NCBI GenBank assembly: GCA_000165345.1
Contig: CM000431.1
Location: forward strand, 704,001-768,000
Length of the DNA stretch: 64,000 nucleotides
Direction: 5' to 3'
Shown here: one piece after another, positions 19,701 to 52,800 of the stretch
Position numbering within the stretch: the stretch's first letter is position 1
How the letters are laid out: each line of letters begins with the position of its first letter
Notes under the pieces: generated by a model
Database searches by the model: none
Told to the model about the DNA's origin: nothing
What the model saw: only the letters and a program-made list of their open reading frames with translations
Program-made: the position numbers and the translations under genes

Positions 19701-20912
19701 ATTTGGCCATCATTAACAGATGAAGAATGGGCTAATGTCGAAGTTGCAATGAAAGACATAATATTGGATGATTACTCCAAAAAGAACAATGTACATATAT
19801 CTGCACTGACACAGAGCGAAATACGAGATATTATATTAGGAATGGAAATAACTCCTCCTTCAATTCAAAGACAACAAATTGCAGAAATCGAGAGACAAGT
19901 TAAGGATCTTGCGAACAAAACGACTGAATGTTCGGATATTACTAGTTTAACTACTAAAACGGTCAACGTTCATGGGCAGGAAATTGTAGTCACGACTCAA
20001 ACACAATATGAACAGAAGACTTTCTCTTCGAAAACCGACTGGAGAGCAAGAGCTTTAGCTTCAACGACTTTAAGCTTAAGAAGCGATAATATTTATATTT
20101 TATCTGATGATTCAATTCTTAACATTTCAAATAACTCGATTATCCCATATATTATCCCAAAAAATTTATTGAAAACATTTATTGAAATTTCAGATTTAAG
20201 GACGCAGATTGGAGCATTTATGTATGGTAAAAAAATCGTTGAATCGATCGGGAAAGGAAAATGCTATTCCGAAAATAGTTGTGAAATGGAAACTGTTATT
20301 GAGATAAGATGTTTAGTATTAGCTCCTCAACATGGCAATCAAAACTCTATTAATATGACTGACATTCTGCCCAAAAACCCGGAAATTTCAGACTTAGAAT
20401 TTATTGGATTAATAAAAACCAAAGTCCAAGAAGAGTTTTCTATAGCTATATCTGATATTGATTACTTATGGAGGATTTCTCAAAATAATTTGGATGTTCA
20501 AGTAGACAATATCGCGATGGTTAGCTGCAGCTTTACCCCAGGATCCACTACCCTTTCTGCAATTAAATTAGATCATGACTGTATTGATTGGTATAAAAAT
20601 AACATTGAAAATAAGGACTTGAACTATGAAACTTTTAAAACTTGTTCATCAGATTATACAGAAAAAATCAAGCTGATACTTTCGGAAACTTATAATGGAT
20701 TCTTTCTAATTCCGGAAGATGGCGTATGGAGCTACAATTCCATGGTGGTTAAGTACAATTATTCCTCTAAATGTTCATATATAGTGGACAAGCCTAATGC
20801 ATTTTATGATGAGGTTCATAGACCACAACATTTTTTGCAATTTGCATATTTAGAAAACATAGATGATTTTGATGAATGCGGACTATTGGAAATAGATGAA
20901 ATTTTTGAATAA
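13773..20912 (+). CDS. PRP8: Pre-mRNA-processing-splicing factor 8 (PRP8), full length 2,379 aa, no intein.
   Basis: Collinear with Prp8 throughout: N-terminal PRO8NT, an RT-like region (…[37 protein letters not shown]…), the U5/U6-binding block [39 protein letters not shown], an RNaseH-like domain and a C-terminal MPN/JAB domain (…[27 protein letters not shown]…). Length matches yeast/human Prp8. Confidence 0.95.
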
Positions 20913-37481: not shown

Positions 37482-40400
37482 TTGTATTCAAATACAAATT
37501 TAACAGGCGTGATGAGAAATATAGATTTTTTTGAAATTTTTAAAAGATTGGATATTAATTATACAAATAAACAAGTAAATTCATGTTCAAGTATTAATTT
37601 AAAAAAAGACAGTATTCAACAAGAAGTTAATTCAAAAGAAAATCAACCACCTGAAAGTGGTGGATATAAACATCGTGAAAATGATGGAATATATTTAGAC
37701 ATTAACTTCAACTCTAACTCTATTGCACTCCAGCCATGTATCGCAATTAAAGAGAAATCATTCAGATTACCAATATTTGAATTGACGTATGATTTTCAAA
37801 TGCCTAATACTACATACCAAGTTAAACAAAACAGCAGGCTTTATGAAGAAATTTACTCATTAGTATATGCAAATTATTCAAATATCATAATTAATGAGAT
37901 TACTCCTTCGAGAAAAATAAAAATTTCTGAAACAAAACCTATTTTTGAAATCTCTGAAAAAGAAGGGAATCAATATTCTATATTTTGGGATGATGAAGAT
38001 ATCAAATCCAACTCATCAATTTTACTTGGTGAGTTTACTGGATTGCTGTATAATGACGAAAAAAAATACTATAACAAGTATTCTTTCAAATTGCCCAATG
38101 TTTCAAATGAAGAGTTAAGTGTTATTTTGGATGCGTCTCATTACTGTAATGAATTTGCTTTTCTAAAACATTGTAGGCTCCCCTTTCCATTCGATGATCA
38201 AAGAATAAGACCAAACACTCAGTTACAGTGGTTATTTATTGATAAATGGCCACATCTTGTTGTATTAACTATTCCTGGAATCGAAATTAAACAAGGCGAT
38301 GAACTTGTTGTCGATTTTGGGAACAATTATCATATGTATTACGTAAATAGTTTGAAAACAATATTTAAAAACATCATCAAAATTAAAGCGGAGAATACGC
38401 AAATTTTCCAAATTTGCACTGTATGTAGACTTGAACTAGAGAAAAGCATTATTGAATGTAAAAAGTGTATAATTTGCCGTGAATACATACATGATAAGTG
38501 TGGTTATTATTATAAAAACAGTGGAAACTCGGTTTGTTGTACTACTTGTTTAAAAAAATCTTTTAATATTATCTTTGGCATTAATAAAAAATTTGATTAT
38601 CCCTTCAGCGGAACAAATAATTCGAGTAAGGATTCAATTATTAGTATACTAAAAATTTATGATGGGGATGCATGCGAAGAATGTTTATCATTGTTTCGTA
38701 AAAAAGACTTGGAATTAGAAAGATGTAAGTCTGCATTCTTTTGTAAACTACTCCATGAATTTTATCAGGTAGATAAACACCCTGATAATATTGACTCTTT
38801 TTATGCAGAATATAATTCCAAAAACGAGACAGAACCAAAGTCAAGCATTAATATGGACATTAAAGCCCTTGAAAATATTTATTATATTTTTGAAAGACTA
38901 GTGAAATACTTAAAGGATTTTTATGATGAAAACAGTGTTTGCGAAAGATTAAAATTTGAATCATATTTTTCCCAAGATAATTATGTTGGTTATTCAAACC
39001 GTCAATCAAAATGTTTATTTCCAGATTCGTTAATCTACGAAACATGGGGAAAGTCGAAATGGAAAGATTTTATTTTTTGGGATCAGGCAAAAAATTCTTG
39101 GGTCGGATTACTAAGACCAAATGGGATATTTTCAAGATTCGATTGCTGTAATAAATATCCAACTATAATTGAAAGTTTTTATGAAACAGAAAAGTGGGTA
39201 GAACAGAGAATAAGCGAAACTACAATTCCAAAGAATTTGATTTCTGCAATATTGAATAATTCTGATAAAGGTTCCAATTGTAATGAAAAAGACTATTCTA
39301 AAAGTCAAGAAGATATTGTTTCACATACTTATTACCACTCGCCGTATTTACCTACTGATCTAGCATCACACCCAGACTTCAAAATATTCAGCAATGAAAA
39401 TGGAAACAAGTATCAAGGTAATTTACCTCCAGTCAACGAAACTAATAATCTATTTTCAATGAATGATAATCAGTTATTGAATGGAAAACTCAAGAACGCA
39501 AATGCTACTCATAGTGTTGAATCAGAATTGTTCTCATTTTCAAATTCGCCTGAATTTTTATTAAATGATATTAGACCACGTGTTTCTACCACAGGTTATA
39601 TTCAATGCTGTTCGCCAGTCAACAGAAAACGTAGAATAAGGTCAACTCTCCCCTTAACTTCGAATGCTGCAAAATGCCCAACTGAATGGAGAGTAAGAGG
39701 GATCACGTGGCATGCAGAAAGAAAAGCATTTATTGTACCATATAGAAGAGATAAAGATGGTGGGCTTACTTCAACAACTTTTGGTGCAATGAAGTATGGA
39801 AGCCCTTTGACTGCATTTTTAAAAGCTTTAGAATTTAGGGAAAATTATTTAAAGGAGCAGGCGACAAAGTTACCAGAAGAAATAAAGCAGCCAAGTGTTA
39901 TTTGTGATCAAGCATTATTAATTAGAAATTTACCAAATATAATTTGGGATTCGAACAAACTTGTATGGAGAGCTCTTGCAGATGAGGAACTCCTATGCAA
40001 TAATAACTTAACACATAAATTAACTTTTTATACACAAGATATTGAAATAAACGCAATGCCTTATGGAGCAAGAATTGCATATGAAATAGCCGAAGTTTGC
40101 TATATTCGTAGAAAAGCATTACTTCTTAACTCAAAGGTAAATACTATAAAAAATTCATCTGTAAGCCGTATAAGAAATAAGAGTAATTCATTAGAGGGTC
40201 ATGGAGACGAGTACCAATTGATATTAGAGGATCAAAACCATTTATTATTACCTAAAAATTCACAAATGGATATTTCAAACTCGCAAAGCTCTTGTTTCAA
40301 ACAAATCAGGTTGAAAATTATTTTTCCAAATGGAGAGGAAGTTATTAGAAGTGACTTGATTGCATGGCATTTTAGGAGTAATTCATGGATAATTACCAAT

Positions 40401-41144
40401 ATGATTGATGGAAGTACATCTAATCAAACGAAAAATATTAGTTTCCTCAATTATTCAGATTCCAATATAAAACAGAAATCTCTTATTCAATCATTAATTT
40501 ACGCAATTGAATGTTGTACATCTATACCTCCAAAGTGTCAAGTATACGTTCATGCAGAGGAAGCTGAGTCAATAATTGATTCTGAAGATCTTGCGGAATT
40601 GTTGAAACCTTTCCCAACAGGGATATCGTGGTATTGCAAAAAAAGAAGGTTTTATACATCAAATGGGCTTGATAGTAATGGAAGAGGACAACACTTTAGT
40701 ATTGCATTATACGGTTCACTTATTTCTGCATTTAATGCCGCAATTGACTATAGAAATATTTTTTTGAAAAATAGGAGAAAGGCTATTTTGCCAAAAGTTG
40801 AATGGATTCTATGCTTTCCTGTTAATCAATGTTCAACTAATACAGGTTCAAATGAAAGAATAAGCGATTCAGATATTATTAATAATCGAGATATAGTAAA
40901 GGAATTGGATAGTTGCAACATTTATCATTTATCCGATAATTATATGGGGAGTTGTAACGATAGAAATATTGATCGAATAAATAGTCAAATATCATCATTA
41001 AATACATGTATTTCAGGAGATTCATATCATTCTGGAAGTGATTGGCTTCAACATCCAACAACAGTTTCATTGTTGGACGATCAGATAATTGAGCCACAAA
41101 ATGATTTGGATAACAGAATAATGAATATTGAATTAATAGAATAA
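37482..41144 (+). CDS. ApiAP2-family DNA-binding protein with two AP2 domains plus an N-terminal SET-like domain and a PHD-like Cys-rich finger.
   Basis: AP2-1 (nt ~39671-39855): CPTEWRVRGITWHAERKAFIVPYRRDKDGGLTSTTFGAMKYGSPLTAFLKALEFRENYL. AP2-2 (nt ~40621-40775): ISWYCKKRRFYTSNGLDSNGRGQHFSIALYGSLISAFNAAIDYRNIFL. SET-like (nt ~38019-38340): ILLGEFTGLLYNDEKKYYNKYSFKL … ILDASHYCNEFAFLKHC … HLVVLTIPGIEIKQGDELVVDFGNNY. PHD-like (nt ~38415-38560): CTVCRLELEKSIIECKKCIICREYIHDKCGYYYKNSGNSVCCTTCLKK. Confidence 0.7.
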   Translation: MYSNTNLTGVMRNIDFFEIFKRLDINYTNKQVNSCSSINLKKDSIQQEVNSKENQPPESGGYKHRENDGIYLDINFNSNSIALQPCIAIKEKSFRLPIFELTYDFQMPNTTYQVKQNSRLYEEIYSLVYANYSNIIINEITPSRKIKISETKPIFEISEKEGNQYSIFWDDEDIKSNSSILLGEFTGLLYNDEKKYYNKYSFKLPNVSNEELSVILDASHYCNEFAFLKHCRLPFPFDDQRIRPNTQLQWLFIDKWPHLVVLTIPGIEIKQGDELVVDFGNNYHMYYVNSLKTIFKNIIKIKAENTQIFQICTVCRLELEKSIIECKKCIICREYIHDKCGYYYKNSGNSVCCTTCLKKSFNIIFGINKKFDYPFSGTNNSSKDSIISILKIYDGDACEECLSLFRKKDLELERCKSAFFCKLLHEFYQVDKHPDNIDSFYAEYNSKNETEPKSSINMDIKALENIYYIFERLVKYLKDFYDENSVCERLKFESYFSQDNYVGYSNRQSKCLFPDSLIYETWGKSKWKDFIFWDQAKNSWVGLLRPNGIFSRFDCCNKYPTIIESFYETEKWVEQRISETTIPKNLISAILNNSDKGSNCNEKDYSKSQEDIVSHTYYHSPYLPTDLASHPDFKIFSNENGNKYQGNLPPVNETNNLFSMNDNQLLNGKLKNANATHSVESELFSFSNSPEFLLNDIRPRVSTTGYIQCCSPVNRKRRIRSTLPLTSNAAKCPTEWRVRGITWHAERKAFIVPYRRDKDGGLTSTTFGAMKYGSPLTAFLKALEFRENYLKEQATKLPEEIKQPSVICDQALLIRNLPNIIWDSNKLVWRALADEELLCNNNLTHKLTFYTQDIEINAMPYGARIAYEIAEVCYIRRKALLLNSKVNTIKNSSVSRIRNKSNSLEGHGDEYQLILEDQNHLLLPKNSQMDISNSQSSCFKQIRLKIIFPNGEEVIRSDLIAWHFRSNSWIITNMIDGSTSNQTKNISFLNYSDSNIKQKSLIQSLIYAIECCTSIPPKCQVYVHAEEAESIIDSEDLAELLKPFPTGISWYCKKRRFYTSNGLDSNGRGQHFSIALYGSLISAFNAAIDYRNIFLKNRRKAILPKVEWILCFPVNQCSTNTGSNERISDSDIINNRDIVKELDSCNIYHLSDNYMGSCNDRNIDRINSQISSLNTCISGDSYHSGSDWLQHPTTVSLLDDQIIEPQNDLDNRIMNIELIE

Positions 41145-41199: not shown

Positions 41200-44100
41200 A
41201 TGAACAGAAACTCGATAATATCTCAATGCAACGTTGATCCCACTGTTTTCTTCTATTATTCAGGTAATAACTTCCACAAAAAATTGGGATTATATTTTAT
41301 TGATGATTTTACCTACGAAAATATTAATAAAATTTTTGAACACACAAATGAGTCAAAACTAACTTTTACTCCAGCTATTGGTGAAATATCAGACCCAATT
41401 TTTTCCGGAGAAACATCTATTGAATATTCATCCGAATTTTTCCCAAGATTTTCCTGGAGCAAAAACGATACTTTTGGTGCATTTACAACTGGTATTTCTC
41501 GCGAAATAAAAATATTGTATTTGAACAAGGGGCAACTCCAAATTTCAGAAGAGATTCATACTCCTGATTACTTTTGTTCTTGTCTTGAACTAAATAATTA
41601 TGTAAATTTTCATTTATTGGCTTCTTCCAATATTAAATATTTCAATTCTCAAAATTTCGCTCAAGGAATTATTTCTATAATCGATTCCAACACTAAACAA
41701 AACATTGTAAATTATCATAAAGGTTCTAGCTTCGAAAGACTTAATAATATTTCCGGATATCCTAATAATGTTAAGTGGATAAACTCCAACTGCTTGGTTT
41801 CTGGCTGGAAGCTTTGTAATTATTCAAGCCAATTGCATTTTTACGACATACGAGCTAAAGATGCAATTTTTGCTACCAATATTATGACCAATTGTAATGA
41901 ACTCCTAGCAGTTAGCCAAACTGGAGGTAATTATTTACTTTCCAGTAACTTAAATAACATTATTTGTATATTTGATATAAGGTTTATGAAAAATGAACCA
42001 AGACAAAATATTATTCAAACATTAAACTGCATTTATTTTAATGATAATGAGATCAACGATATACAGTGGTTTCCAAATGGAGAACTCAATATTTCAATTT
42101 ATACTAATGATGGGATCTTTATTGCAGAGTTAAATAAAGAAATAAACTCACATATATCTTTTGAAGCATACAAGTCAGATAATCGTTTTGAAAATATCTA
42201 TTGGAATGAAAATTTAATCAAGCATTACAAGCCATTAAGTCTTAAAGAAGATTTCAGCGATACATTTTGTTGGGTTAATTATTTTGGAGGAAGTAACAAT
42301 AAACATTCATTAGTATACACAACTTCTGAGTCTGCATATCTTTTATCAAATTTAGAAATTAAAATTAATTCTTTTCCTACCTTTCGAATTTCTCCACTGG
42401 ATTCTCATTCAATAGATACGAAACATAAGCCTCAAAAAATTAATTACAGGGTTTCAAATTCTCCAAAATTGTTTGGTTACTCATGGATTCCATATAGGAT
42501 AATAAAATACTATAAAAATGATAAGAAAATTGAAGAGTACAACTGCATAGAGTTATTGAGAAGACTTGAGAACATAAATTCAACAGAAGCTAGAAATTTG
42601 GTCATTAATCAAAATGATCAGAAAAAGTTAATTGATATTGGAATTTTCCCATTAGCATTAAATAACTTAACTAATATTATAAAAATTATTAAATCTGCTT
42701 CTCATGCATTTAATTACTTATCAACTTTACCTAATCGAATTATTCATTGGAAAGATATTTTGAGGCAATTTAACAAGCAAGGCCTATTTAGTGGTGAAAA
42801 CGTGTCTGTTTTAGATAAATTAATGTTACCAGGAATCAGAGACTTAGTTTATATTTTTAAGTTGGAAGCAGGGAATAGTGATATATCTACCCAGCTGAGA
42901 TTTATTAATGTCAAGTATGAAGATTTAGAAAATAAGTCTTCTAAATGCTTGAATATGAGAGAAAATTTTCATCACATTGAAATATTTTGTTCTCCTTTTA
43001 GAGAGAAGTTAATAAATCTTTTTGGAGTATCCTCATTTATTATTGAAACGCCTATCTTTATAGACAATAATGACCCAATTCAATTAGAATCATTTTTAAT
43101 CACATTTTTTTGGAACTGCATTACACTTCAATACCAGAATTTTATTTCTCACGGTGATAAGCTATCAAATATTCTTGATAATTTTATTGATAATGAAAAT
43201 AAGCTACTCAAATCCTCTTTTTTAAAAAATATTAAGTTGTTTTTTAATTCTGCTGGGATTTTTATTTCGAATTTATATTCTTCAGAAGAACTAAATAAAA
43301 TTTCTTTAAGCAGAAAAGATATTCAGTTCTACTACTATTCAATTATTTCAACAAGCGAACATTTACTAGATGAAGATTATTACTTGCCTATTTGGAACAG
43401 CAACATTCATTTTGAATCTAGTCTTCAACTTTCAATAAGATTTATTGTTGCATTTTCCAAATTTATTAATATCCATGATCAAAACAAGCAATTTTCTTCA
43501 TATTTATTGGATGAACTATTAATTCCTTCCATGAGAATAAACTCTTATATTTATATTCCTGCTAATTTGTTACTTTTGATTGGAATTTATTATTTACCTT
43601 TGGAGGAAATTTGTAACTTGATAGAAATAATTATAAGAAAAATGGCTCAAAATGGTTTTTTAGATGGAATATCAATTTTAGGGTTTAATACATTTACTGA
43701 TGAAACATTTTTGTTAAGAAGTTTTCCTGATAACTACAACTCTGAACAATTTGAAACCTTTCTCGGGAATTTCAATTTGAACGAAAATCTTGATTCGATA
43801 TTTTTAGAGCCAGAAAATAATATAAATAAAAATTTTGGTTATAATTTGAGCTCTCAAGTATTTCTTAATTTAATTTTTCGCAAATATTTATCTCTTTCAT
43901 TTGGAGATATTCAAACAGTTGCATTAATTGGATCGTGTATTCCTAATCTCTCTGGTGGTCTCAAAAAAAATATGGAATTATTAAAGATTTGCATTGATGA
44001 ATACAAAGATTTATTGAAGAATAACTCTTTAATATATTATCTAATTTATAGCTCAAACATAATCGGCCTTTTAAAAAATGGATCTAAATCCGCAAAATTT

Positions 44101-44796
44101 ACTTATAATAATGTATCGGGCATACTTTATGAGCTTAATATCCTAAGATCGAGTTACTATAAAATGATTCATATTGACCAGGATCAATTAAAGCCACTAT
44201 TACCAACTGGGAATATATTATTTTGCTATTATTGCGAGCAGCCATTATGCCAAGCATATTTCGAGCAGAGTTGCTTTTTTGAAAAAAGCAATTCGAACAT
44301 GGATTGTAATTCAATAATTTCTCAATCATTCAATACAGACCTTTCTGAAGTTCAATTAGACAAAAAAGAAATAGTTTTTAAGAATATTTATAATAGAGAC
44401 TATCAGGTAGGATATTCGTTACGTTGGACAAGCAGTAATAAATCAAGTATAAATAGTTTAATTCAACCTGAAGCTATTCAAAGTTTGGAGTTATCATCTA
44501 TGATCTTAAACTGCCCTAATAAATATTGTAACAAACCTCTACCAAGATGCGTAATTTGTTTGACAGAAATGTCTATCAATGTGATTAGTAATTCAATCAA
44601 TGATGACGCTGCGCAAAAGGACTGTACTCAACAATGTAATTATAATAAATTGAGTAAATGGTATACTTGGTGTTTGCATTGCCACCATGGCGGATGTTTT
44701 AAACATATCAGTGAATGGTTTGAGTGTTTTGATGAATGCCCTGTACCGGAGTGCAATTGTTGGTGTAATTCAGTAGATCGTTGGCACAAATTATAA
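41200..44796 (+). CDS. WD40-repeat protein with a C-terminal GATOR2/SEACAT-type zinc finger (Mios/WDR24/WDR59 = Sea4/Sea2/Sea3-like).
   Basis: N-terminal region has WD-like strands (…DIQWFPNGELNISIYTNDGIFIAEL…). C-terminal 100 aa (nt ~44527-44796): CNKPLPRCVICLTEM…WCLHCHHGGCFKHISEWFECFDECPVPECNCWC resembles the GATOR2 RING signature C-x2-C…C-x2-C-x-H-G-G-H…W…CP-x-G-C-x-C-x-C. Confidence 0.5.
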   Translation: MNRNSIISQCNVDPTVFFYYSGNNFHKKLGLYFIDDFTYENINKIFEHTNESKLTFTPAIGEISDPIFSGETSIEYSSEFFPRFSWSKNDTFGAFTTGISREIKILYLNKGQLQISEEIHTPDYFCSCLELNNYVNFHLLASSNIKYFNSQNFAQGIISIIDSNTKQNIVNYHKGSSFERLNNISGYPNNVKWINSNCLVSGWKLCNYSSQLHFYDIRAKDAIFATNIMTNCNELLAVSQTGGNYLLSSNLNNIICIFDIRFMKNEPRQNIIQTLNCIYFNDNEINDIQWFPNGELNISIYTNDGIFIAELNKEINSHISFEAYKSDNRFENIYWNENLIKHYKPLSLKEDFSDTFCWVNYFGGSNNKHSLVYTTSESAYLLSNLEIKINSFPTFRISPLDSHSIDTKHKPQKINYRVSNSPKLFGYSWIPYRIIKYYKNDKKIEEYNCIELLRRLENINSTEARNLVINQNDQKKLIDIGIFPLALNNLTNIIKIIKSASHAFNYLSTLPNRIIHWKDILRQFNKQGLFSGENVSVLDKLMLPGIRDLVYIFKLEAGNSDISTQLRFINVKYEDLENKSSKCLNMRENFHHIEIFCSPFREKLINLFGVSSFIIETPIFIDNNDPIQLESFLITFFWNCITLQYQNFISHGDKLSNILDNFIDNENKLLKSSFLKNIKLFFNSAGIFISNLYSSEELNKISLSRKDIQFYYYSIISTSEHLLDEDYYLPIWNSNIHFESSLQLSIRFIVAFSKFINIHDQNKQFSSYLLDELLIPSMRINSYIYIPANLLLLIGIYYLPLEEICNLIEIIIRKMAQNGFLDGISILGFNTFTDETFLLRSFPDNYNSEQFETFLGNFNLNENLDSIFLEPENNINKNFGYNLSSQVFLNLIFRKYLSLSFGDIQTVALIGSCIPNLSGGLKKNMELLKICIDEYKDLLKNNSLIYYLIYSSNIIGLLKNGSKSAKFTYNNVSGILYELNILRSSYYKMIHIDQDQLKPLLPTGNILFCYYCEQPLCQAYFEQSCFFEKSNSNMDCNSIISQSFNTDLSEVQLDKKEIVFKNIYNRDYQVGYSLRWTSSNKSSINSLIQPEAIQSLELSSMILNCPNKYCNKPLPRCVICLTEMSINVISNSINDDAAQKDCTQQCNYNKLSKWYTWCLHCHHGGCFKHISEWFECFDECPVPECNCWCNSVDRWHKL

Positions 44797-44867: not shown

Positions 44868-47800
44868 TCAATGATTAGTATCTGCTTCGTTTATTTTAAC
44901 ATTGACATTATCATCTTGCTCTACGTTGCCAAGCGATTCATTGCTTGACTGCTCCATCTCCATAATTGAGTCAGCAATCCTTGATTCATATCTCAATGAG
45001 ATTAACCATATTATTCCGATTACAATGCTAATTGCAAAACCTATAAACGTGGCAAAATTTAAAATAACGATAAGAGTGTCTTTGGTTCTACCGACCATCC
45101 CACAAAACGTAACGATCCCATTTGTAAAGTCAACTGAAACTTGTCCACAATTATGAGCTTCTGTCTTTATACTATTTAAAATCATTGCACTCCCAAACAT
45201 TTTCCTTATTCTATCGTTTAGAACCAAATTTAGTCTCTCGACCTCATTAGCTGCAAAGTTAGTTGGGTTAATTAAATAATCGTAACTAATACTGGCAATG
45301 TACTCTTGGAATTCAACGTATTTGCATGTATTATTATAGTATTTAATATAAAGGCTGTTATTTCCAAAATTGGGAATTTCCTTTATTCCTTCAATATCTA
45401 TCCAAGAAAATGGATAACAAAAAAAATTGTGATTATACAATTCCATTGATTTCTTTACCCATACTAGCGTATGTTTAAAGCTCGAAATTGGATAGTCCTT
45501 AAAATGTTTATTATCTTTATGATATTTTTCTATGGCTAGCTGATCAATGTCTGTGTCTGCTGAAATGATTAGATTCTCTTCTGAATTTGTATTATCCTCT
45601 GTAATAGAAGATGTTGGCTCAAATATATTTTCTAAGCTAGATAATTTTGAAGTAGGATTCTCCTCAGTTTTCTCTTGTTTTCCGTTAATAGTATCTGAAG
45701 TATCTACCAAGTATTTTATTTTAAATGGGTATATTATTGATTCAAGAACTTCCAAGCCAGGAACCTTAATTGGCAATGACTGAGAAATCATTAAAGTTGA
45801 AACATTAGAATTAGGACTGCTACATAGAGCAGTGTATGTAGTGTAGCCGAATATAGAACTTTTCATTAGCCAATTTTCTTCTTTGTAGCTCTGAGTTATT
45901 AAAACTAATACAGGCACGTCTTGTTCATCTGGTGTAGATTTCTCCACATCTGGAAAGTACATTAAAGAATATTTTATGTAGTCTGTTATATTCATGTAAT
46001 TAAAACATTGTTCTGCTATTGCTTGGCTGGTGGAAATAATATTGATATATTCTGGAACAATTTTTGACATATCATTGACAAAAGAGCCTGGTAGCAATTG
46101 AACTAATAAATAGGATAGACTGCTTTCTATTGGAGCATCGTCCAACAAACCAACTATTTCCTGATTACCGAACCTTTCAGCAAGTAAAATATCATTTGAG
46201 TTACTTTTTAGTAGTTCATTATTATAATTCAAAAACAAATTGGAAATAAAGTCATTTTTATTCATTGCTCTGCTTTTTGTACTCAAATCTCCCAAGTATA
46301 ATTCACTTTTTAAACTCTCGTTACTAAACAAGTGATTCTGATTCAACAAAAATCGAGGGCTTTTATTTGAATAGTTGAAAAATATGTCTTTAATATTTTC
46401 GCTATCTTTGGACTCATCACTCTGAAGTTTATTAAATAAATCTAAATATATATGATTTTTTATTCCATGATATTCTAAAACCCTTATCCTATCAGTTATA
46501 AAATCTTTTTCATTAAGATATCTTTTGTTATCACTTTTAATCTTAATATACGATGCAAGTGGATACATACATATACTCATAATCATTCCTAATTCGGGAC
46601 TTACAGTTGAAATCCAATTCATCCCTATTGGACTAAACAAATCACTAACTATCCAACCACAATAGTCTTTCCCTACTGTTCCTGAAACCGTTAGAGTATA
46701 TGAAACAAATGAAACAAATGTAGACAATCCCATAAATATGAATGCGACAGCAACCAATGCTGACCTACTTTGGAAAAATCCAATGTGACTTCTTCCAGAT
46801 AAGAATAGTTTTATGTGAAGAATTGAAAAAATAATTGAAATTACTCCAATTATTGTAGATGAAACGCATAGCACTGTAATTATTACAAACACAATGTTGC
46901 TTGCAGTCCTAGATACATTTAAAAATAATAAAATGTATGAAATAAATTTTTTGAAAATTTCAAAGTATTCATTAACACTAAATGACATTGATGAAGTATC
47001 CACTGATTTTATAATGTCAGTTATTTTATTTAAAACCGGAATCATAGAGTTAAATAAAGTTTCATTCACTGGCATAAATGAATTTACAGCATTTAATACA
47101 GAGTTCTTAAGTAATTCTTTGGCCGGAATATACCAATCAATTCCATTAGGATTAATTACTGATGAATTGGTAAAAACATTTGCTAATTCATTTAGTCTTA
47201 TACTTAGAGCAGTTGGAAACCCTGCACTTCTAATGTAATTAATTGTGTCTTTAAAAAATTCAATTAATGTTTCAACTGAACCCAATTCCTGAAATAAACC
47301 GTAAAGTGGTAGTGATCCAATGAATGGAACTGTTGTATTTGTTTTCAAGAATGATTTTGCAATACTGAACGAACCTGAAGTTGTGTTAATATTTATATTG
47401 CCATTTGAAAATGCATCCGCTCCAATTGCAAACCAACAAACTGATGTTAAAAAAGAATCAGAAAAGGCAAAAAAGTTTACAATAATCACAATAGAAAGAG
47501 TAATATAAATAACACATAGTCCACATAATAGGGTACTCAATATATATATACTCAGTTTTACTTTCCATAATCCGTTTGATGTTTCTTCAAATGAAACAAC
47601 TCTGTCGTTCATTACTCTGCACAAAACAAACCCAAGAGATACGGCAATAAAGGTAAAGATTGAAATACCAAAAATTATACAACTGGCAATTTCTCTCCAA
47701 ATCAATGCATCTAAATAGCTGGATATCAGCGGTTTAAGATTTATGTGAGTTTTATTGGAATCTGCAATGATTGCATTTTCAAAAATTATTCCTGCTAAGA

Positions 47801-48080
47801 CACTATAATCTGAATGCCACGATTTGAACGATTCCCACATTTCCTTTTTATAAGCGAGATCACTTTCTTGAAGTTTGTCGTACCTCCCACAGTTTTCAGA
47901 GACAAATTCTTCCAGAGTAGATACCCTGGAATAATTAATAACTTGCTGTGCCTTTTCAAGGCTAGATAAAATATATGGAGTGCTAACTGACCATGGTATA
48001 TCTGTTAAGGAGGCCTCAACTTTACCAAAAAGGTATATACATATACAAAAGATGGATGTTATGCAATATTTAACAGACAT
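44868..48080 (-). CDS. Signal-peptide-bearing multi-pass membrane glycoprotein (1,070 aa), prominin/tweety-like topology, acidic cytoplasmic tail.
   Basis: N-terminal hydrophobic signal (MSVKYCITSIFCICIYLFGKVEAS). TM helices at ~aa 120-145, 175-215, 375-420 and 440-465, a large Cys-containing loop, a last TM at ~aa 985-1015 (LIVILNFATFIGFAISIVIGIIWLISL), then a tail ending …EQDDNVNVKINEADTNH. Many N-x-S/T sites in the predicted luminal loops. Confidence 0.6.
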   Translation of the reverse strand: MSVKYCITSIFCICIYLFGKVEASLTDIPWSVSTPYILSSLEKAQQVINYSRVSTLEEFVSENCGRYDKLQESDLAYKKEMWESFKSWHSDYSVLAGIIFENAIIADSNKTHINLKPLISSYLDALIWREIASCIIFGISIFTFIAVSLGFVLCRVMNDRVVSFEETSNGLWKVKLSIYILSTLLCGLCVIYITLSIVIIVNFFAFSDSFLTSVCWFAIGADAFSNGNININTTSGSFSIAKSFLKTNTTVPFIGSLPLYGLFQELGSVETLIEFFKDTINYIRSAGFPTALSIRLNELANVFTNSSVINPNGIDWYIPAKELLKNSVLNAVNSFMPVNETLFNSMIPVLNKITDIIKSVDTSSMSFSVNEYFEIFKKFISYILLFLNVSRTASNIVFVIITVLCVSSTIIGVISIIFSILHIKLFLSGRSHIGFFQSRSALVAVAFIFMGLSTFVSFVSYTLTVSGTVGKDYCGWIVSDLFSPIGMNWISTVSPELGMIMSICMYPLASYIKIKSDNKRYLNEKDFITDRIRVLEYHGIKNHIYLDLFNKLQSDESKDSENIKDIFFNYSNKSPRFLLNQNHLFSNESLKSELYLGDLSTKSRAMNKNDFISNLFLNYNNELLKSNSNDILLAERFGNQEIVGLLDDAPIESSLSYLLVQLLPGSFVNDMSKIVPEYINIISTSQAIAEQCFNYMNITDYIKYSLMYFPDVEKSTPDEQDVPVLVLITQSYKEENWLMKSSIFGYTTYTALCSSPNSNVSTLMISQSLPIKVPGLEVLESIIYPFKIKYLVDTSDTINGKQEKTEENPTSKLSSLENIFEPTSSITEDNTNSEENLIISADTDIDQLAIEKYHKDNKHFKDYPISSFKHTLVWVKKSMELYNHNFFCYPFSWIDIEGIKEIPNFGNNSLYIKYYNNTCKYVEFQEYIASISYDYLINPTNFAANEVERLNLVLNDRIRKMFGSAMILNSIKTEAHNCGQVSVDFTNGIVTFCGMVGRTKDTLIVILNFATFIGFAISIVIGIIWLISLRYESRIADSIMEMEQSSNESLGNVEQDDNVNVKINEADTNH

Positions 48081-48198: not shown

Positions 48199-49830
48199 TT
48201 AAATATTTTTTTCTTGTAAGATTTTACAAATTCTAAGTAATTCCCTACATGAACTAACTACATTGCACTTAACTTGCTCGATATCTTTAATATCCTTTGC
48301 ACTGTTGTACAAATTCTTAGTGATTTCTAATAAGCTTTCATTAAGTTTAGGCGCATTTGAATTTAATTCAGGCTCTGAATTTAAGTTACACCTTATTTGA
48401 GAATAATGTATGTCTCTATGTTCAAAAAAATGGCTTCTTTGATTGGATAATAGGACCTTTTTGTAGTTTTTATCATCAAAAGCTGAGCCACTTAATAATT
48501 TAGGCGAATTTAAGCACTCGTTTTCAGCAGAAACAGTGTAGCATAGTGATTTTGCGTTCGATAATATTTCAAGTGGACTAATAGATAAGTTTGATTGATT
48601 AACTATTAATTTCAACGTATGGTTAAAGTCAGAGTTTACTATTGCACTTCTTCTTGCAAGTAGTATTGAAATAGCAATAAAATTTACTATTGGTAAAGAT
48701 GATTCAACTGCTTCACAGACCTCTTTATTTATATTTTTTCTCCCTTTTGCAGAACCATCCATTAAAATTTCGCTATTAGAGAATTTCCCATTTTGAAGGG
48801 CATCACAAAAGATGCCTTCCCAAATTATAATTGAATTATTCAAATCGGAAAATTCTCTAGAAAATAAAAGTCTAATCCATCTTAAAAAAATAAGTTGGGG
48901 TTCAATTTCATGCTCTCTATATAGATGAATAAACAGCTCATAATCTACCTTTTCTAAAATGCCATAAATATTTATACATCTATGTACTATCGGAGGTTTA
49001 TTCGAATCATCGTTTTTCATTGAATTATTATCATTTGAATTACACTCATTGTATGTGGATTTAAACATATATTTTAAACCAAAAACATTCATAACAGAAT
49101 TAAACATAATATAAGTATCTGCTTCTATTGAATCGCTCCTAAAAATGTGTTCTAAACTGAAATTATCTCCATTGTATTCATTCTTTGACTCTAGACCATT
49201 AGAATAAACTCTATTATCAACAATTTTCTGACTGTGATTTATCAAAAATAAAATTGCAGCAATTTCATTCATTCCCTGCTTGTATCCCAGATCAGGGTTC
49301 TCGCGTGTCCATGTGAACAATATTCTTTGCAAAAGTTGTCTCGTATTTGAGTCAGAAAAAAGTTGTCGTTCAGAATAGGTTCTTGTGACGTCTTTCCAAA
49401 TTTCATCTAATAATTCACCATTTTTGTGTTGTTCATTCCACGGGTTATTAGCAATCTGAGATAGAGGATGAAACTTTAAAGGGTCCATTGAAGTAACTTT
49501 ACTAATATCTAATTTATTTTTGTTAAAAGAGCGAGAATAATTGCTTCTCTCCATTTCTAGTAATTCGTGAATTTTTTTATAGCAATCATGAATTGAAAGC
49601 GAAAAAAAATCAACAGGGATAATTCTGAGTAGAATCATCCACTTAAGACGTGGGATATCCAATATATTTTCATTTTTTCCTTGTACATATTTTACATTAC
49701 AAACATTTTCGGTATATTTAATAAAGTTTTGTTTTGGATTACCTTTCAAATATTCAAAAAAATCTATAAAGCTTGAATCTTCGATTTTTGAATAGTACTC
49801 GTCATTCTCAAAAACTTCAAAATCTGTCAT
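48199..49830 (-). CDS. TBC-domain Rab GTPase-activating protein.
   Basis: TBC Arg- and Gln-finger region RQLLQRILFTWTRENPDLGYKQGMNEIAAILFL (nt ~49180-49290), matching I..D..RT…Y.QGM. Start codon lies 32 bp downstream of the preceding gene's stop. Confidence 0.75.
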   Translation of the reverse strand: MTDFEVFENDEYYSKIEDSSFIDFFEYLKGNPKQNFIKYTENVCNVKYVQGKNENILDIPRLKWMILLRIIPVDFFSLSIHDCYKKIHELLEMERSNYSRSFNKNKLDISKVTSMDPLKFHPLSQIANNPWNEQHKNGELLDEIWKDVTRTYSERQLFSDSNTRQLLQRILFTWTRENPDLGYKQGMNEIAAILFLINHSQKIVDNRVYSNGLESKNEYNGDNFSLEHIFRSDSIEADTYIMFNSVMNVFGLKYMFKSTYNECNSNDNNSMKNDDSNKPPIVHRCINIYGILEKVDYELFIHLYREHEIEPQLIFLRWIRLLFSREFSDLNNSIIIWEGIFCDALQNGKFSNSEILMDGSAKGRKNINKEVCEAVESSLPIVNFIAISILLARRSAIVNSDFNHTLKLIVNQSNLSISPLEILSNAKSLCYTVSAENECLNSPKLLSGSAFDDKNYKKVLLSNQRSHFFEHRDIHYSQIRCNLNSEPELNSNAPKLNESLLEITKNLYNSAKDIKDIEQVKCNVVSSCRELLRICKILQEKNI

Positions 49831-49862: not shown

Positions 49863-52800
49863 TTACTTAGTCAAATTCCCCGCAAAATCTTTCGCATTAT
49901 AATTGGAGAAATTTATTTTTTTTTCATGGATATTTGATAGTAGGAAATCAAGGCGTTTTTCAAAAAAACTTATATAAAAACTGCTGTTTTCAAATATATC
50001 TTCTCTATTATTAATCTCCCTATATTTGGAAATTATAATCAATTTTCTAATTGATATCACAAAAGTTAAAATGCTTACTTCATCAATTAAAACGCTCCCA
50101 AAAAGTTCGATACTTATTAGTTGGGTCGGACACTCCTTTATACAATCATAAACTCTTTTAAACAGATTAATTTGACTCTTTATTTGCGTCCCCCATTGTT
50201 CAAAATGGAGCTCAATTTTCGATATTTCATCTGAATTTAGTGTTTTTTGGCTTATAGCTTTAAAATATTTGAAAATCTGACAAGTTGCTACCTGGGAAAT
50301 ATTCAAATATTCGTTACAAATATTATCAATCTCCCTTGGGAAAAATACGGAGTTATTTTGAGTTTCCATACTCCGTAAACTTTCAGATATTACGTCCAAG
50401 ATTATTATCGAAAATAAACATGAATTCTGGTCATTAAGCAAGACAATTTGTTTAATTTGATTTTCGTATTCGTTATAGCAATTTAAGCCACTGCCGTGAG
50501 AATCTTCATTTTGATGTAAGAAGTTACTACAGAAATATTTGATAATATGGATAAACGAATTAAAAGTAAGAATTGCTTTATTTTCGATGGACGCAGCTTC
50601 GTCAGTTATTAAATAAATTAAACAAACCATTAAGTTGTACCAATAATTGTGGTTAAAACACAACAAAAAAAGAATTGTTCCTTCATGAATATCATTAATG
50701 CCAATTTTTGTACAGAATAAGTTTCTAATTCTATCATTTTTTTCAACTTTTATTTCCAAAAATAATTCAGTTTCCAGAGATTCAAAAATAGTTCTTATTA
50801 TTTTGCAGATCAAACATTTTTTTTCAAGTGTTAACTGTGTTCCATTACATATGTTGTTACAAACCATCTTTAAGATTTTATCAAATACTATCTTTTCAAG
50901 TTCGTATACTATAAAATACGGAATACTATCATGTCTTGCTATATTTTTGTAAAACCTAATAAAAAAAATAGAAAATTCCAAAATCGCAATTTGATCTTCG
51001 AAAAAGAATCTTCCAATTTTGCTGTTTATTAAATCTATATCAGTTTTTTCCTCAGAGTTTTCATCTTCACCTTCGCTAGTCTTATATTTAGAAAGCTCTT
51101 GGTGATAAATCAGGTCAAAAACAGACTCTATTATTGAATCAGATTGTTCGTTTTCTAAAAAAACAAAAGACAACTTATAATTATAACCAATAAAAGATAA
51201 GCACCCTGTCAATACTTTAACTAAGTCTGTTAATATTGATAATTTTCTAATTTTCGTCTTCTCATTTATGTATTGCTCTTTATTGTTTGCTGAAATTAAA
51301 TGTTTTATGGACTTTAAATTGTTATCAATTAAGTTAAAAAGTTTCTGAACGAAGGTATCCTTCTTTTCTGATATAGATAGAATGTCAATAATTGACGAGT
51401 AGAATTCAAGTAAAATTTTCGGATGAATGATTTTATCAAAGGCTGGAGATAAACAAATTAATGAGTTTAATTCTCCAGAATCAATATATTTAAAAACATT
51501 ATTAACAATTATTTTTATCAAGTATATATGCTCTGATAGATTTTCATTAAAATAGTTCTTTGGATGACTTATTGATAAATATAGATTATTGTTTAGATTA
51601 GAGAAATCTATATAAAGTGTTTTAGATTTTGAACTGATGTTTTTCCAATAATAAATTAGATTTTCCAAACAATTCGATTTTTCATTTATAGGAAATTCAA
51701 GTTCAAATAACAAACTCATTAGTTCTAACGCCGTTATTCTTAATAGTGGATGCTTAAATGTTGTAAAGCTATCTCTAATAAAAACCAACAAATTTTCGTA
51801 AATTGAATTGTCTATAGATTTGAAAGAATTCCAACAAGATTGATTTTTAAATTTTTTCATCAGAACAATTCCCAAATTTAGAATTCCATGAATTAAGTTA
51901 TATTTATTCTCTGAATTGTTAATCGAAAATTTGATAGATTGAAAAATTAAATTTAGTAAAGAATTGGCTTTAGAAGCTTGATTATTCGAGTTATTGATAA
52001 AAATTTCAAGCAGGATTCCATCTAAATTTGCATTAGAAATTTCATTTAGTGGATGTAAACTCAAATTAGGGATATTTAATGTTAAAAAAATAATCTCTCC
52101 CAATAACTTTGAAGAATACATTCTAACGAAATATGAACTTGAATAAATTGATTTAATAATGCAAATAGCAAGCTCGTATGAGCAATCTGCCCATGAAATA
52201 GATATTTCAGTAAGTAGTAACAGAACCATTCCTTGAAATTGCGTATGAGTAGAATTTAGCAAAATATCAATAATGCATGGCTCAAAAATACCTGAAATTC
52301 TTTTAATCGATTTTAGTGAAAAACGGGTAGAAGTATTGATTTCAGATATCAAAGAATTAACACAATTATAATCAAATTGTTTATTTAATACGATTGATAA
52401 AACATCTTTGAGCACTTTATTAAATAAAATGGGTAAGTCGTCTGACCCCGGTGTGGTTTTAAAATCATTATTAAGAATTTCGCATCGATTGTTCGTCTTG
52501 CTAATATATTCAATATTACTTTCTATTCCGTTTGCTTTGAAACTAAACCTTTTCAAAAGTGCAGACATTAAATTCAATGAAGAATTGCATAAAGCAAACC
52601 CGTTTTCGTCTTTAACTTTCAAATCGTATATTTTAATATTATTGAATGCTGAAAATAAAGAACCACATAGTAAACTCAGATCAAAAATTTCGCAAAGAGT
52701 ATTTGTTCCAGAACTGCTTTTTGATTTAGAAATTAATTTTGCGAGGATATGATTAGAGTGAATACTGCATCTATAACGCTGGAATAAAATATAATCAGAA

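What the first reader, a model, noticed from the sequence alone, without database searches (positions are those of the whole stretch)
44868..48080. 1,070-aa signal-peptide membrane glycoprotein with prominin/tweety-like topology and no recognisable family
Cleavable-looking signal peptide, two TM pairs flanking a ~170-aa loop, a very large (~500 aa) second loop rich in N-glycosylation sequons and Cys, and a final TM followed by an acidic 55-aa tail. This 5-TM, two-large-loop layout is the prominin/tweety arrangement. Those proteins organise membrane protrusions or form channels. In a parasite such a surface protein could be involved in host-interface membrane structures.
Basis: inference. Interest (0 to 1): 0.5.

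Follow-up and report, generated by a model that had tools for sequence, protein, structure and literature searches.

The report
Cryptosporidium prominin-like pentaspan membrane glycoprotein
This Cryptosporidium parvum gene encodes a real, conserved five-pass surface-type glycoprotein that looks like an orphan in routine searches but is most likely a very divergent member of the prominin/Tweety family, whose known members bend membranes and handle lipids. This gives a testable function to a "hypothetical protein".

Summary
Window 44868-48080 (-) is one 1,070-aa ORF of C. parvum with a signal peptide, five hydrophobic spans in a 2+2+1 pattern, two short basic inner loops, two large sequon- and Cys-bearing outer loops (188 and 538 aa) and an acidic 44-aa tail. 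Standard searches call it an orphan: no Pfam, NCBIfam or PDB sequence hit, and an exhaustive HMM search of 1.84 billion proteins finds only Cryptosporidium.

Verdict: a probable divergent prominin-superfamily member, a new member of a known kind. Its function (membrane curvature or lipid handling at the parasite surface) is inferred, not shown. Interest is moderate.

The parts
44868..48080 (-). Complete single-exon CDS, 1,070 codons plus stop. C. parvum 'hypothetical protein' EAK89032.1 / Q5CUF8 / CPATCC_001311.
48009..48080 (-). Signal-peptide-like N-terminus, aa 1-24, ending in VEA|S.
   Evidence: Hydropathy. Present in the orthologues. No SignalP run was possible.
47691..48008 (-). N-terminal ectodomain, aa 25-130, with conserved C64. 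It has no counterpart in the T. gondii protein, though some sarcocystid homologues have longer N-termini.
47466..47690 (-). First TM hairpin. TM1 (aa 131-155) ends in the invariant 'LCR' (C154-R155). A 20-aa inner loop follows, then TM2 (aa 176-205).
46902..47465 (-). Outer loop 1, aa 206-393. It holds four conserved sequons (N232, N248, N305, N339), C215, the shared motif PFIGSLPL...QELG (aa 252-267) and the motif SFMPVNETLFNSMIPVLNKITDII (aa 334-357).
46695..46901 (-). Second TM hairpin. TM3 (aa 394-420), a 17-aa basic inner loop (conserved F436, R439, S440) and TM4 (aa 438-462).
46569..46682 (-). Post-TM4 signature, aa 467-504: G-x-V-G-x-D-Y-C474 ... W489 ... P495 ... C504. C474, W489 and C504 are invariant across Cryptosporidium, sarcocystid and mammalian prominin-1 sequences in the MAFFT alignment.
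45081..46694 (-). Outer loop 2, aa 463-1000. Conserved blocks: 463-512, 629-792, 837-1000. Fast-evolving inserts: 513-628, 793-836. Conserved Cys: 474, 504, 888, 919, 978, 993. Conserved sequons: N697, N907.
45708..45767 (-). Loop-2 motif KVPGLEVLESIIYPFKIKYL (aa 772-791), matching T. gondii KLAGLKTLEKLVHPWKFSAL.
   Evidence: (segment loop2a)
45096..45482 (-). Loop-2 C-terminal block, aa 867-995. This is the best-scoring hhalign region against the T. gondii family (Tg 569-689). It includes W874, the C888/C919 pair and the pre-TM5 NC978-x14-C993 pair.
44871..45080 (-). TM5 (aa 1001-1026, W1025) and the acidic Ser-rich cytoplasmic tail (aa 1027-1070). The juxtamembrane motif R-x(3)-R-I-x-D-S is shared with sarcocystids (W..R...D).

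Best explanation
The ORF encodes the Cryptosporidium representative of the apicomplexan prominin-like pentaspan family, whose other members are T. gondii TGME49_218910 and P. falciparum PF3D7_0104100 ('CPMP'). That makes it a very divergent member of the prominin/TTYH superfamily.

What is shown: the topology and the sequence and fold relationships.

What is inferred, as a working model:
1. The signal peptide directs the protein into the secretory pathway. It ends up N-out/C-in in the parasite plasma membrane or a secretory or endosomal membrane.
2. The five TM helices continue outward into a disulfide-stapled, N-glycosylated helical ectodomain built from loops 1 and 2.
3. As in prominin and TTYH, this wedge-shaped unit binds membrane lipid or sterol at the TM/ectodomain junction. 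It thereby stabilises curved membrane (protrusions, vesicle budding) and/or speeds lipid exchange between the membrane and extracellular carriers.
4. The Cryptosporidium-specific additions are a 106-aa N-terminal ectodomain and about 190 extra residues in loop 2, two stretches of which evolve fast. They would adapt the outer face to lineage-specific partners.
For: Topology:
- 2+2+1 TM pattern, inner loops of 20 and 17 aa, and conserved sequons in the outer loops.

Link to the sarcocystid family (A4, 5 sequences):
- hhalign of the Cryptosporidium profile (A3) against A4 scores 37.2, P=0.0023.
- The null from 40 local column shuffles has mean 20.0, sd 3.3 and max 28.4.
- At a lower alignment threshold the alignment is collinear, Cp 143-996 to Tg 47-690, with TM1-TM4 in register.
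- Topologically matched segments tested separately give loop 1 P~0.012, loop 2a P~0.0035 and loop 2b P~0.0015. The N-terminus is not significant. Fisher combination gives P=4.4e-5.
- An independent MAFFT alignment recovers the same anchors: C154, R155, F253, G255, P258, C474, W489, C504, G775, P785, W874, C888, C919, W1025, R1034, D1037.

Link to prominin:
- Published HHpred results: Tg against human prominin-2 E~2e-20, Pf against Tg 3.4e-44 (PMC8115857).
- Here, the merged Cp+Tg profile against 30 mammalian prominin-1 sequences scores 44.3-47.6, P 1e-4 to 4e-4, probability 34-57%. Tg alone scores 34.2 and Cp alone 28.3.
- The shuffle null for the merged profile has mean 25.8 and max 37.0.
- The alignment is collinear over Cp 120-553 / PROM1 87-593.
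- C154, R155, G255, P258, C474, W489 and C504 are invariant in a three-family alignment.

Fold:
- The AF2 model was built from Cp and Tg sequences only.
- Foldseek ranks 1, 2, 3, 5 and 12 are TTYH2.
- A cruder Cp-only model does not hit TTYH, so the hit is not automatic for any helical model.

Function of the family:
- TTYH2 accelerates lipid transfer from APOE particles (PMC12328215).
Against: - No Pfam Prominin or Tweety hit in any of the 16 family members, even at E<=10.
- The Cp profile alone against prominin-1 is not significant and aligns in the wrong register.
- All profiles are shallow (Neff 1.6-2.6). The hhalign probabilities are low (9-57%), so significance rests on P-values of 1e-3 to 1e-5, not on database-grade E-values.
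- As a single sequence, the Cp protein scores only 20.7 against the Tg profile. That is rank 2 of 25 window proteins, behind PRP8 at 25.4 by chance.
- The Tg query came from a machine-read supplementary figure, although the search returned the real database proteins.
- The Cys-rich cluster after TM1, present in prominin and the Tg family, is reduced to a single Cys in Cryptosporidium.
- There are no localisation, expression or lipid-binding data for this protein.
Confidence: 0.65

Rival explanations
1. A lineage-restricted Cryptosporidium surface glycoprotein with no true relatives. On this view the pentaspan 2+2+1 layout is convergent and the weak matches to the Toxoplasma family are noise. 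Its job would be parasite-specific, for example an adhesin or antigen exposing a large glycosylated ectodomain.
For: - The exhaustive HMM search of 1.84 billion representatives finds only two Cryptosporidium clusters.
- No Pfam, NCBIfam or PDB sequence hits.
- The single-sequence control is not significant.
- Two loop-2 stretches evolve fast (36-46% mean identity), as expected for exposed antigens.
Against: - Three separate, topologically equivalent segments each beat their shuffle nulls, and they are collinear.
- Six loop-2 cysteines and several 8-20-aa motifs keep the same order.
- Merging with the Tg family improves the prominin-1 score rather than diluting it.
- An adhesin role is not excluded and could coexist with prominin-family ancestry.
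Confidence: 0.2
2. A sterol-sensing-domain (SSD) protein of the NPC1/Patched/SCAP type, as suggested by the UniRef name 'SSD domain-containing protein' given to the C. hominis orthologue.
For: - The source label.
- Five hydrophobic spans.
- Cryptosporidium depends on scavenged sterol (general knowledge).
Against: - An SSD is five consecutive TM helices within about 180 aa joined by short loops. Here TM2 and TM3 are 188 aa apart and TM4 and TM5 are 538 aa apart.
- No match to Pfam Sterol-sensing or Patched models at E<=10 in any of the 16 family members.
Confidence: 0.03
3. A pore-forming anion channel, following the older view of Tweety homologues as chloride channels.
For: - Fold-level resemblance to TTYH.
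Against: [quoted passage not shown]
- Prominins are not channels (PMC11405016).
- Nothing in the five TM segments suggests a polar pore lining: the TM segments contain almost no charged residues.
Confidence: 0.05

Closest known systems
Apicomplexan prominin-like proteins TGME49_218910 (T. gondii) and PF3D7_0104100 / CPMP (P. falciparum), described in PMC8115857
   Same: - Five TMs in a 2+2+1 pattern.
- Collinear similarity over about 850 residues.
- Shared motifs: LCR after TM1, FIG..PL in loop 1, C..W..P..C after TM4, FP(D/E)...(E/Q)(D/E)V, GL..LE...P(F/W)K...L, W..K...C.P, NC-x14-C before TM5, and W...R...D after TM5.
- The most variable part lies in loop 2, as reported for P. falciparum CPMP.
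   Different: - About 340 residues longer than the T. gondii protein (1,070 against 734 aa).
- Has a cleavable-looking signal peptide and a 106-aa N-terminal ectodomain.
- Loop 2 is 538 aa against ~349 aa.
- The CCCC cluster after TM1 is absent.
- Only 15-19% identity.
- Orthology (reciprocal best hit) could not be tested.
Metazoan prominin-1/-2 (CD133; Pfam PF05478)
   Same: - Signal peptide, N-out/C-in pentaspan topology, two short inner loops and two large N-glycosylated outer loops.
- A Cys-Arg at the end of TM1.
- A Cys shortly after TM4 and a Cys pair just before TM5.
- Cytoplasmic tail of similar length.
   Different: - No Pfam hit, and direct profile comparison is not significant. The link is seen only through the Toxoplasma-type intermediates.
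- Loop 1 is shorter (188 against ~260 aa) and loop 2 much longer (538 against ~230-290 aa).
- The Cys-rich juxtamembrane cluster is missing, as is the TM5 Trp (W795 in human PROM1).
- Cholesterol binding and localisation to protrusions are unknown.
Tweety homologues TTYH1-3 (Pfam PF04906; PDB 7p5j, 7p54, 9qnr, 9g71)
   Same: - Five TMs whose helices extend into an extracellular helical bundle.
   Different: - TTYH outer loops are only ~120 aa, and the proteins are ~450-530 aa long.
- No sequence-level match.
- The model used for the comparison has low confidence.

Membership tests
Prominin (PF05478; curation criteria of PMC11405016) | Five TM helices in a 2+2+1 pattern, N-terminus outside, C-terminus inside. 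| tested here: met
   Hydropathy peaks at 131-155, 176-205, 394-420, 438-462 and 1001-1026, plus a signal peptide. Charge bias and sequon placement fit N-out/C-in. Helices in the AF2 models agree. No dedicated predictor was available.
Prominin (PF05478; curation criteria of PMC11405016) | Two small intracellular loops (<25 aa). | tested here: met
   20 aa (156-175) and 17 aa (421-437).
Prominin (PF05478; curation criteria of PMC11405016) | Two large glycosylated extracellular loops. | tested here: met
   188 and 538 aa, with six sequons conserved in at least 9 of 11 species. Loop 1 is shorter than in metazoan prominins. Glycosylation itself was not tested.
Prominin (PF05478; curation criteria of PMC11405016) | Significant match to the Pfam Prominin model. 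| tested here: not met
   No hit at E<=1 for the protein. No hit at E<=10 for any of 16 Cryptosporidium and sarcocystid family members.
Prominin (PF05478; curation criteria of PMC11405016) | Profile-profile similarity to bona fide prominins. | tested here: inconclusive
   Cp profile alone: probability 1.4%. Merged Cp+Tg profile: score 44.3-47.6, P 1e-4 to 4e-4, probability 34-57%, collinear over TM1-TM4. The shuffle null has max 37.0.
Prominin (PF05478; curation criteria of PMC11405016) | Cys-rich cluster at the TM1/first cytoplasmic loop boundary. | tested here: not met
   Only C154 ('LCR') is kept. PROM1 has CMCRCCNKCGG and T. gondii has CRWCRKCCCC.
Prominin (PF05478; curation criteria of PMC11405016) | Conserved extracellular cysteines after TM4 and before TM5. 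| tested here: met
   C474/C504 align with PROM1 C507/C554. For the pre-TM5 pair, C978/C993 against PROM1 C704/C720, the three-family alignment (A6) does not align them. The match is by position relative to TM5 only. All four Cp cysteines are invariant in 11 Cryptosporidium species.
Prominin (PF05478; curation criteria of PMC11405016) | Cholesterol binding and enrichment in curved membrane protrusions or vesicles. | not testable with these tools
   Needs tagging, fractionation and lipid-binding assays.
Apicomplexan prominin-like family (TGME49_218910 / PF3D7_0104100) | Collinear sequence similarity across both outer loops and the TM core. | tested here: met
   hhalign P=0.0023. Segment tests give P 0.012, 0.0035 and 0.0015, combined 4.4e-5. 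MAFFT recovers the same anchors. Against the single machine-read P. falciparum sequence the result is only P~0.01-0.05.
Apicomplexan prominin-like family (TGME49_218910 / PF3D7_0104100) | Reciprocal best match (orthology) within whole proteomes. | not testable with these tools
The exhaustive search from the Cp side did not reach Toxoplasma.
Tweety homologues (PF04906) | Match to the Tweety Pfam model. | tested here: not met
   No hit at E<=10.
Tweety homologues (PF04906) | TTYH fold: five TMs extending into an extracellular helical bundle. | tested here: inconclusive
Sterol-sensing domain proteins (NPC1/Patched/SCAP) | Five consecutive TMs within ~180 aa, and a match to SSD or Patched models. 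| tested here: not met
   The TMs are split by loops of 188 and 538 aa. No Pfam Sterol-sensing or Patched hit. The UniRef label is probably a hydrophobicity-driven false positive.

The most novel reading that the evidence does not exclude
Cryptosporidium cannot make its own sterols and lives under a host-derived membrane on a heavily folded feeder organelle. It may use this enlarged prominin/TTYH-type protein at that interface, or on invasive stages. There the protein would both shape highly curved parasite membrane and pull host-derived lipid or sterol into it, which would be a parasite counterpart of TTYH2-APOE lipid unloading. The Cryptosporidium-specific N-terminal domain and the loop-2 insertions would be the docking surface for a host or parasite lipid carrier.
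Probability: 0.12. Interest if true: 0.75.

Novelty: new member of a known kind. Interest (0 to 1): 0.42.

Why it matters
- It turns a conserved 'hypothetical protein' of a major diarrhoeal pathogen into a candidate with a defined fold family and concrete assays: vesicle induction, sterol or lipid binding, and localisation to curved membranes.
- It extends the prominin/TTYH superfamily to the earliest-branching apicomplexan lineage examined here. It also shows how far the ectodomain can expand while the five-TM core and cysteine framework persist.
- It corrects a misleading database label ('SSD domain-containing protein').
- If the protein is surface-exposed, its conserved ectodomain blocks are potential antibody targets and its fast-evolving loop-2 stretches are potential typing markers, as CPMP already is in P. 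falciparum.

Tried and rejected
1. Pfam and NCBIfam scans of the protein and of 16 family members found nothing relevant.
2. PDB sequence searches with the protein and with profiles A1 and A7 found nothing.
3. The word-indexed homologue search and the exhaustive profile search of 1.84 billion representatives found Cryptosporidium only.
4. A direct hhalign of the Cryptosporidium profile against 30 mammalian prominin-1 sequences gave probability 1.4% and a wrong-register TM match. It is rejected as evidence either way because both profiles are shallow.
5. No solved prominin structure turned up by sequence in the PDB copy, using a human PROM1 sequence recalled from memory. That sequence was validated only indirectly, by retrieving prominin-1 proteins at up to 96% identity.
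7. The afdb50 structure library was not available, so the model could not be compared with AlphaFold prominin models.
8. Prominin-1 sequences were deliberately left out of the AF2 alignment so that the fold search would not be circular.
9. In the single-sequence control, the Cp protein scored 20.7 against the Tg profile, rank 2 of 25 window proteins. The signal needs the family profile.
10. The machine-read P. falciparum sequence gave only marginal segment statistics (P~0.04-0.05), despite a striking loop-1 motif.
11. The SSD label was rejected on topology and on the absence of hits.
12. Literature searches by accession and by 'Cryptosporidium + prominin' found no prior description.
Full report
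**The object.** Window 44868-48080 on the minus strand is one uninterrupted ORF of 1,070 codons. The window is ~30% G+C and densely packed with long ORFs. The protein is 100% identical to C. parvum Iowa II 'hypothetical protein' EAK89032.1 / Q5CUF8 / CPATCC_001311. It maps to ~752-755 kb of the 1,102,616-bp chromosome record CP044420.1, where it is called as the same single gene. Its neighbours are a TBC RabGAP gene 118 bp upstream and a convergent WD/zinc-ribbon (MIOS-like) gene whose stop lies 71 bp beyond its stop.

**Checking the observation.** Hydropathy shows a signal-peptide-like N-terminus (aa 1-23, then VEA|S) and five strong hydrophobic spans:

| Span | Residues |
|---|---|
| TM1 | ~131-155 |
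| TM2 | ~176-205 |
| TM3 | ~394-420 |
| TM4 | ~438-462 |
| TM5 | ~1001-1026 |

- This is a 2+2+1 pattern with inner loops of 20 and 17 aa, outer loops of 188 and 538 aa, and a 44-aa acidic tail.
- Eleven Cryptosporidium species keep the full-length protein at 34-90% identity.
- C64, C215, C474, C504, C888, C919, C978 and C993 are invariant across these species. All are predicted to be extracellular.
- The six outer-loop sequons conserved in at least 9 of 11 species are N232, N248, N305, N339, N697 and N907.
- Loop 2 is a mosaic. The conserved blocks are 463-512, 629-792 and 837-1000 (74-82% mean identity). Two stretches evolve fast: 513-628 (46%) and 793-836 (36%).
- I had no dedicated TM or signal-peptide predictor, so the topology is an inference from hydropathy, charge, sequons and the AlphaFold helices.

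**Why it looks like an orphan.**
- Pfam and NCBIfam give no hit.
- PDB sequence searches with the protein and with family profiles give nothing.
- The word-indexed search finds only Cryptosporidium.
- An exhaustive HMMER profile search of 1.84 billion cluster representatives finds only two Cryptosporidium clusters.
- One source names the C. hominis orthologue 'SSD domain-containing protein'. I reject that label for two reasons. A sterol-sensing domain is five consecutive TMs within ~180 aa, which this layout is not. And none of 16 family members matches the Sterol-sensing or Patched models even at E<=10.

**The bridge to a known family.** A literature search turned up PMC8115857. That study used HHpred to show that P. 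falciparum PF3D7_0104100 ('CPMP') and T. gondii TGME49_218910 are prominin homologues. The reported values are Tg against human prominin-2 ~2e-20 and Pf against Tg 3.4e-44. Its supplementary figure gave a machine-read T. gondii sequence. Using that as a query retrieved the real T. gondii, Neospora, Besnoitia and Cystoisospora proteins (alignment A4).

Comparison of the Cryptosporidium profile (A3, 11 sequences) with A4 gave these results:
- hhalign scores 37.2, P=0.0023, over Cp 867-995 / Tg 569-689.
- Forty decoys made by shuffling A3 columns within 20-column windows preserve the local hydrophobicity. They give mean 20.0, sd 3.3 and max 28.4. The reversed profile gives 17.4.
- With a lower alignment threshold, the alignment extends collinearly over Cp 143-996 / Tg 47-690, with TM1-TM4 in register.

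The shared motifs in that alignment are:

| Location | C. parvum | T. gondii |
|---|---|---|
| TM1 end | FVLCR | KVFCR |
| Loop 1 | PFIGSLPL..QEL | RFIGVSPL..RDL |
| After TM4 | C474..NWIS-TVSPE..C504 | C358..SWIIDKVDPE..C393 |
| Loop 2 | YFPD..EQDVPVLV | TFPE..EEDVEIVF |
| Loop 2 | KVPGLEVLESIIYPFKIKYL | KLAGLKTLEKLVHPWKFSAL |
| Loop 2 | LVWVKK..FFC888YPF | IWWSVQK..YDC590PYY |
| Loop 2 | C919 | C605 |
| Before TM5 | NC978..C993 | NC672..C687 |

Further checks on this link:
- I tested segments paired by topology separately, with 100 shuffles each. Loop 1 gave P~0.012, the first part of loop 2 P~0.0035 and the last part of loop 2 P~0.0015. The N-terminus with TM1-2 was not significant. The Fisher combination is 4.4e-5.
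- An independent MAFFT alignment of the two families recovers the same anchors as invariant or nearly invariant columns.
- The machine-read P. falciparum sequence aligns collinearly too. It shares a notable loop-1 motif (Cp SFMPVNETLFNSMIPVLNKITDII / Pf [24 protein letters not shown]), but its statistics are marginal.

**The link to prominin proper.**
- With the shallow profiles available here, Tg family against 30 mammalian prominin-1 sequences (A2) gives only score 34-36, P~0.003-0.004. My set-up is therefore far less sensitive than the published HHpred run.
- The Cryptosporidium profile alone against prominin-1 is not significant.
- Merging the Cryptosporidium and Toxoplasma families raises the score to 44.3-47.6 (P 1e-4 to 4e-4, probability 34-57%). 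This is what a genuine family would be expected to do.
- The shuffle null for the merged profile has mean 25.8 and max 37.0 (n=48). The extended alignment is collinear over Cp 120-553 / PROM1 87-593.
- In a three-family MAFFT alignment the invariant columns are C154, R155, G255, P258, C474, W489 and C504. These are the TM1-end Cys-Arg, a loop-1 Gly/Pro pair and the post-TM4 C..W..C signature.

**Structure.**
- AF2 on Cryptosporidium sequences alone was unusable (pLDDT 34).
- Adding the five sarcocystid sequences, and deliberately no prominin or TTYH sequences, gave pLDDT 40.2 and pTM 0.32, with the TM helices at 60-73. In this model long helices run out of the membrane from each TM: H119-157, H168-225, H369-428, H438-482 and H977-1050.
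- Foldseek against the PDB found nothing significant, but ranks 1, 2, 3, 5 and 12 were TTYH2 (best E=0.73).
- The cruder Cp-only model did not hit TTYH at all. The result is therefore not automatic for any helical model, but it depends on a low-confidence model and the margin is small.
- No prominin structure was found in the PDB copy by sequence, and the AlphaFold-database library was unavailable.

**Interpretation.** The simplest reading is that this is the Cryptosporidium member of the apicomplexan prominin-like family, and so a very divergent prominin/TTYH-superfamily protein (confidence ~0.65).

It meets the topological criteria used to curate prominins in PMC11405016: a 2+2+1 pattern, inner loops under 25 aa and large outer loops. 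It fails the Pfam model and lacks the juxtamembrane Cys cluster. I therefore file it as a divergent superfamily member and not as a canonical prominin.

Mechanism is inferred from the family. Prom1 and Ttyh1 both bend membranes and drive vesicle formation, and Prom1 binds cholesterol (PMC11405016). TTYH2 accelerates lipid transfer from APOE particles into membranes (PMC12328215). I therefore propose an N-out/C-in, disulfide-stapled, glycosylated helical ectodomain on a five-TM base. It would organise curved membrane and/or lipid exchange at the parasite surface. Lineage-specific additions (the N-terminal ectodomain and the loop-2 insertions) would provide partner specificity.

Where and when the protein acts is unknown. 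I found no paper that mentions it.

**Rivals.**
- A true orphan with convergent topology (~0.2). The collinear multi-segment similarity argues against it. It is kept alive by the shallow statistics and by the non-significant single-sequence control.
- An anion channel (~0.05). This is the older view of TTYH, superseded by the structure-based lipid-transfer model.
- An SSD protein (~0.03). It is contradicted by the topology and by the absence of hits.

**Novelty and score.** The apicomplexan prominin link was published for Plasmodium and Toxoplasma. I found no report of it for Cryptosporidium, and public annotations call this gene hypothetical, or SSD. It is a new, unusually expanded member of a known kind. 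Interest is moderate (0.42). It is a useful re-annotation with clear experiments, but not a new kind of system unless the lipid-scavenging or feeder-organelle reading proves true.

Noticed in passing
window 28982-37060 (-): A 2,692-aa ORF matches the KNTC1 (ROD) third ARM-repeat domain (PF24515, E=5e-16). It is a candidate RZZ-complex kinetochore/checkpoint protein in Cryptosporidium.
   Followed up: partly
window 41200-44796 (+): A 1,198-aa protein has a C-terminal zinc_ribbon_16 domain (PF17034, E=2e-14) and a weak beta-propeller signal. This is the MIOS/GATOR2-type architecture. It is convergent with the target gene, with 71 bp between the stop codons.
   Followed up: partly
window 49863-57146 (-) and 37482-41144 (+): Two large ORFs (2,427 and 1,220 aa) have no Pfam hit at E<=0.001. 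They are further unannotated giants flanking the locus.
   Followed up: partly
window 13773-20912 (+) and 48199-49830 (-): PRP8 spliceosomal protein (seven Pfam domains, E down to 1e-219) and a TBC-domain RabGAP (E=2e-20). These are ordinary housekeeping neighbours, and there is no functional clustering with the target.
   Followed up: yes
C. hominis orthologue of window 44868-48080 (cluster members P0011, P0016): UniRef names it 'SSD domain-containing protein'. The topology and the lack of any Sterol-sensing or Patched model hit indicate that this label is a false positive that could spread to other annotations.
   Followed up: yes
window 45573-45704 and 46197-46544 (aa 793-836 and 513-628 of the target): Two loop-2 stretches evolve much faster than the rest (36% and 46% mean identity across 11 species, against 74-82% for the flanking blocks). 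This parallels the polymorphic second loop of P. falciparum CPMP, which is used as a genotyping marker, so they are possible typing or antigenic regions.
   Followed up: partly
window 44928-44945 (aa 1046-1051, cytoplasmic tail): A conserved SSNES / acidic Ser-rich motif sits in the tail (the N1047 'sequon' is conserved in 9 of 11 species although predicted cytoplasmic). It looks more like an acidic-cluster or CK2-type phosphorylation or sorting signal than a glycosylation site.
   Followed up: no
P0007 (C. canis orthologue): The database protein lacks the first ~44 residues, including the signal peptide, compared with all the other orthologues. This is probably a mis-called start codon in that annotation.
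   Followed up: no
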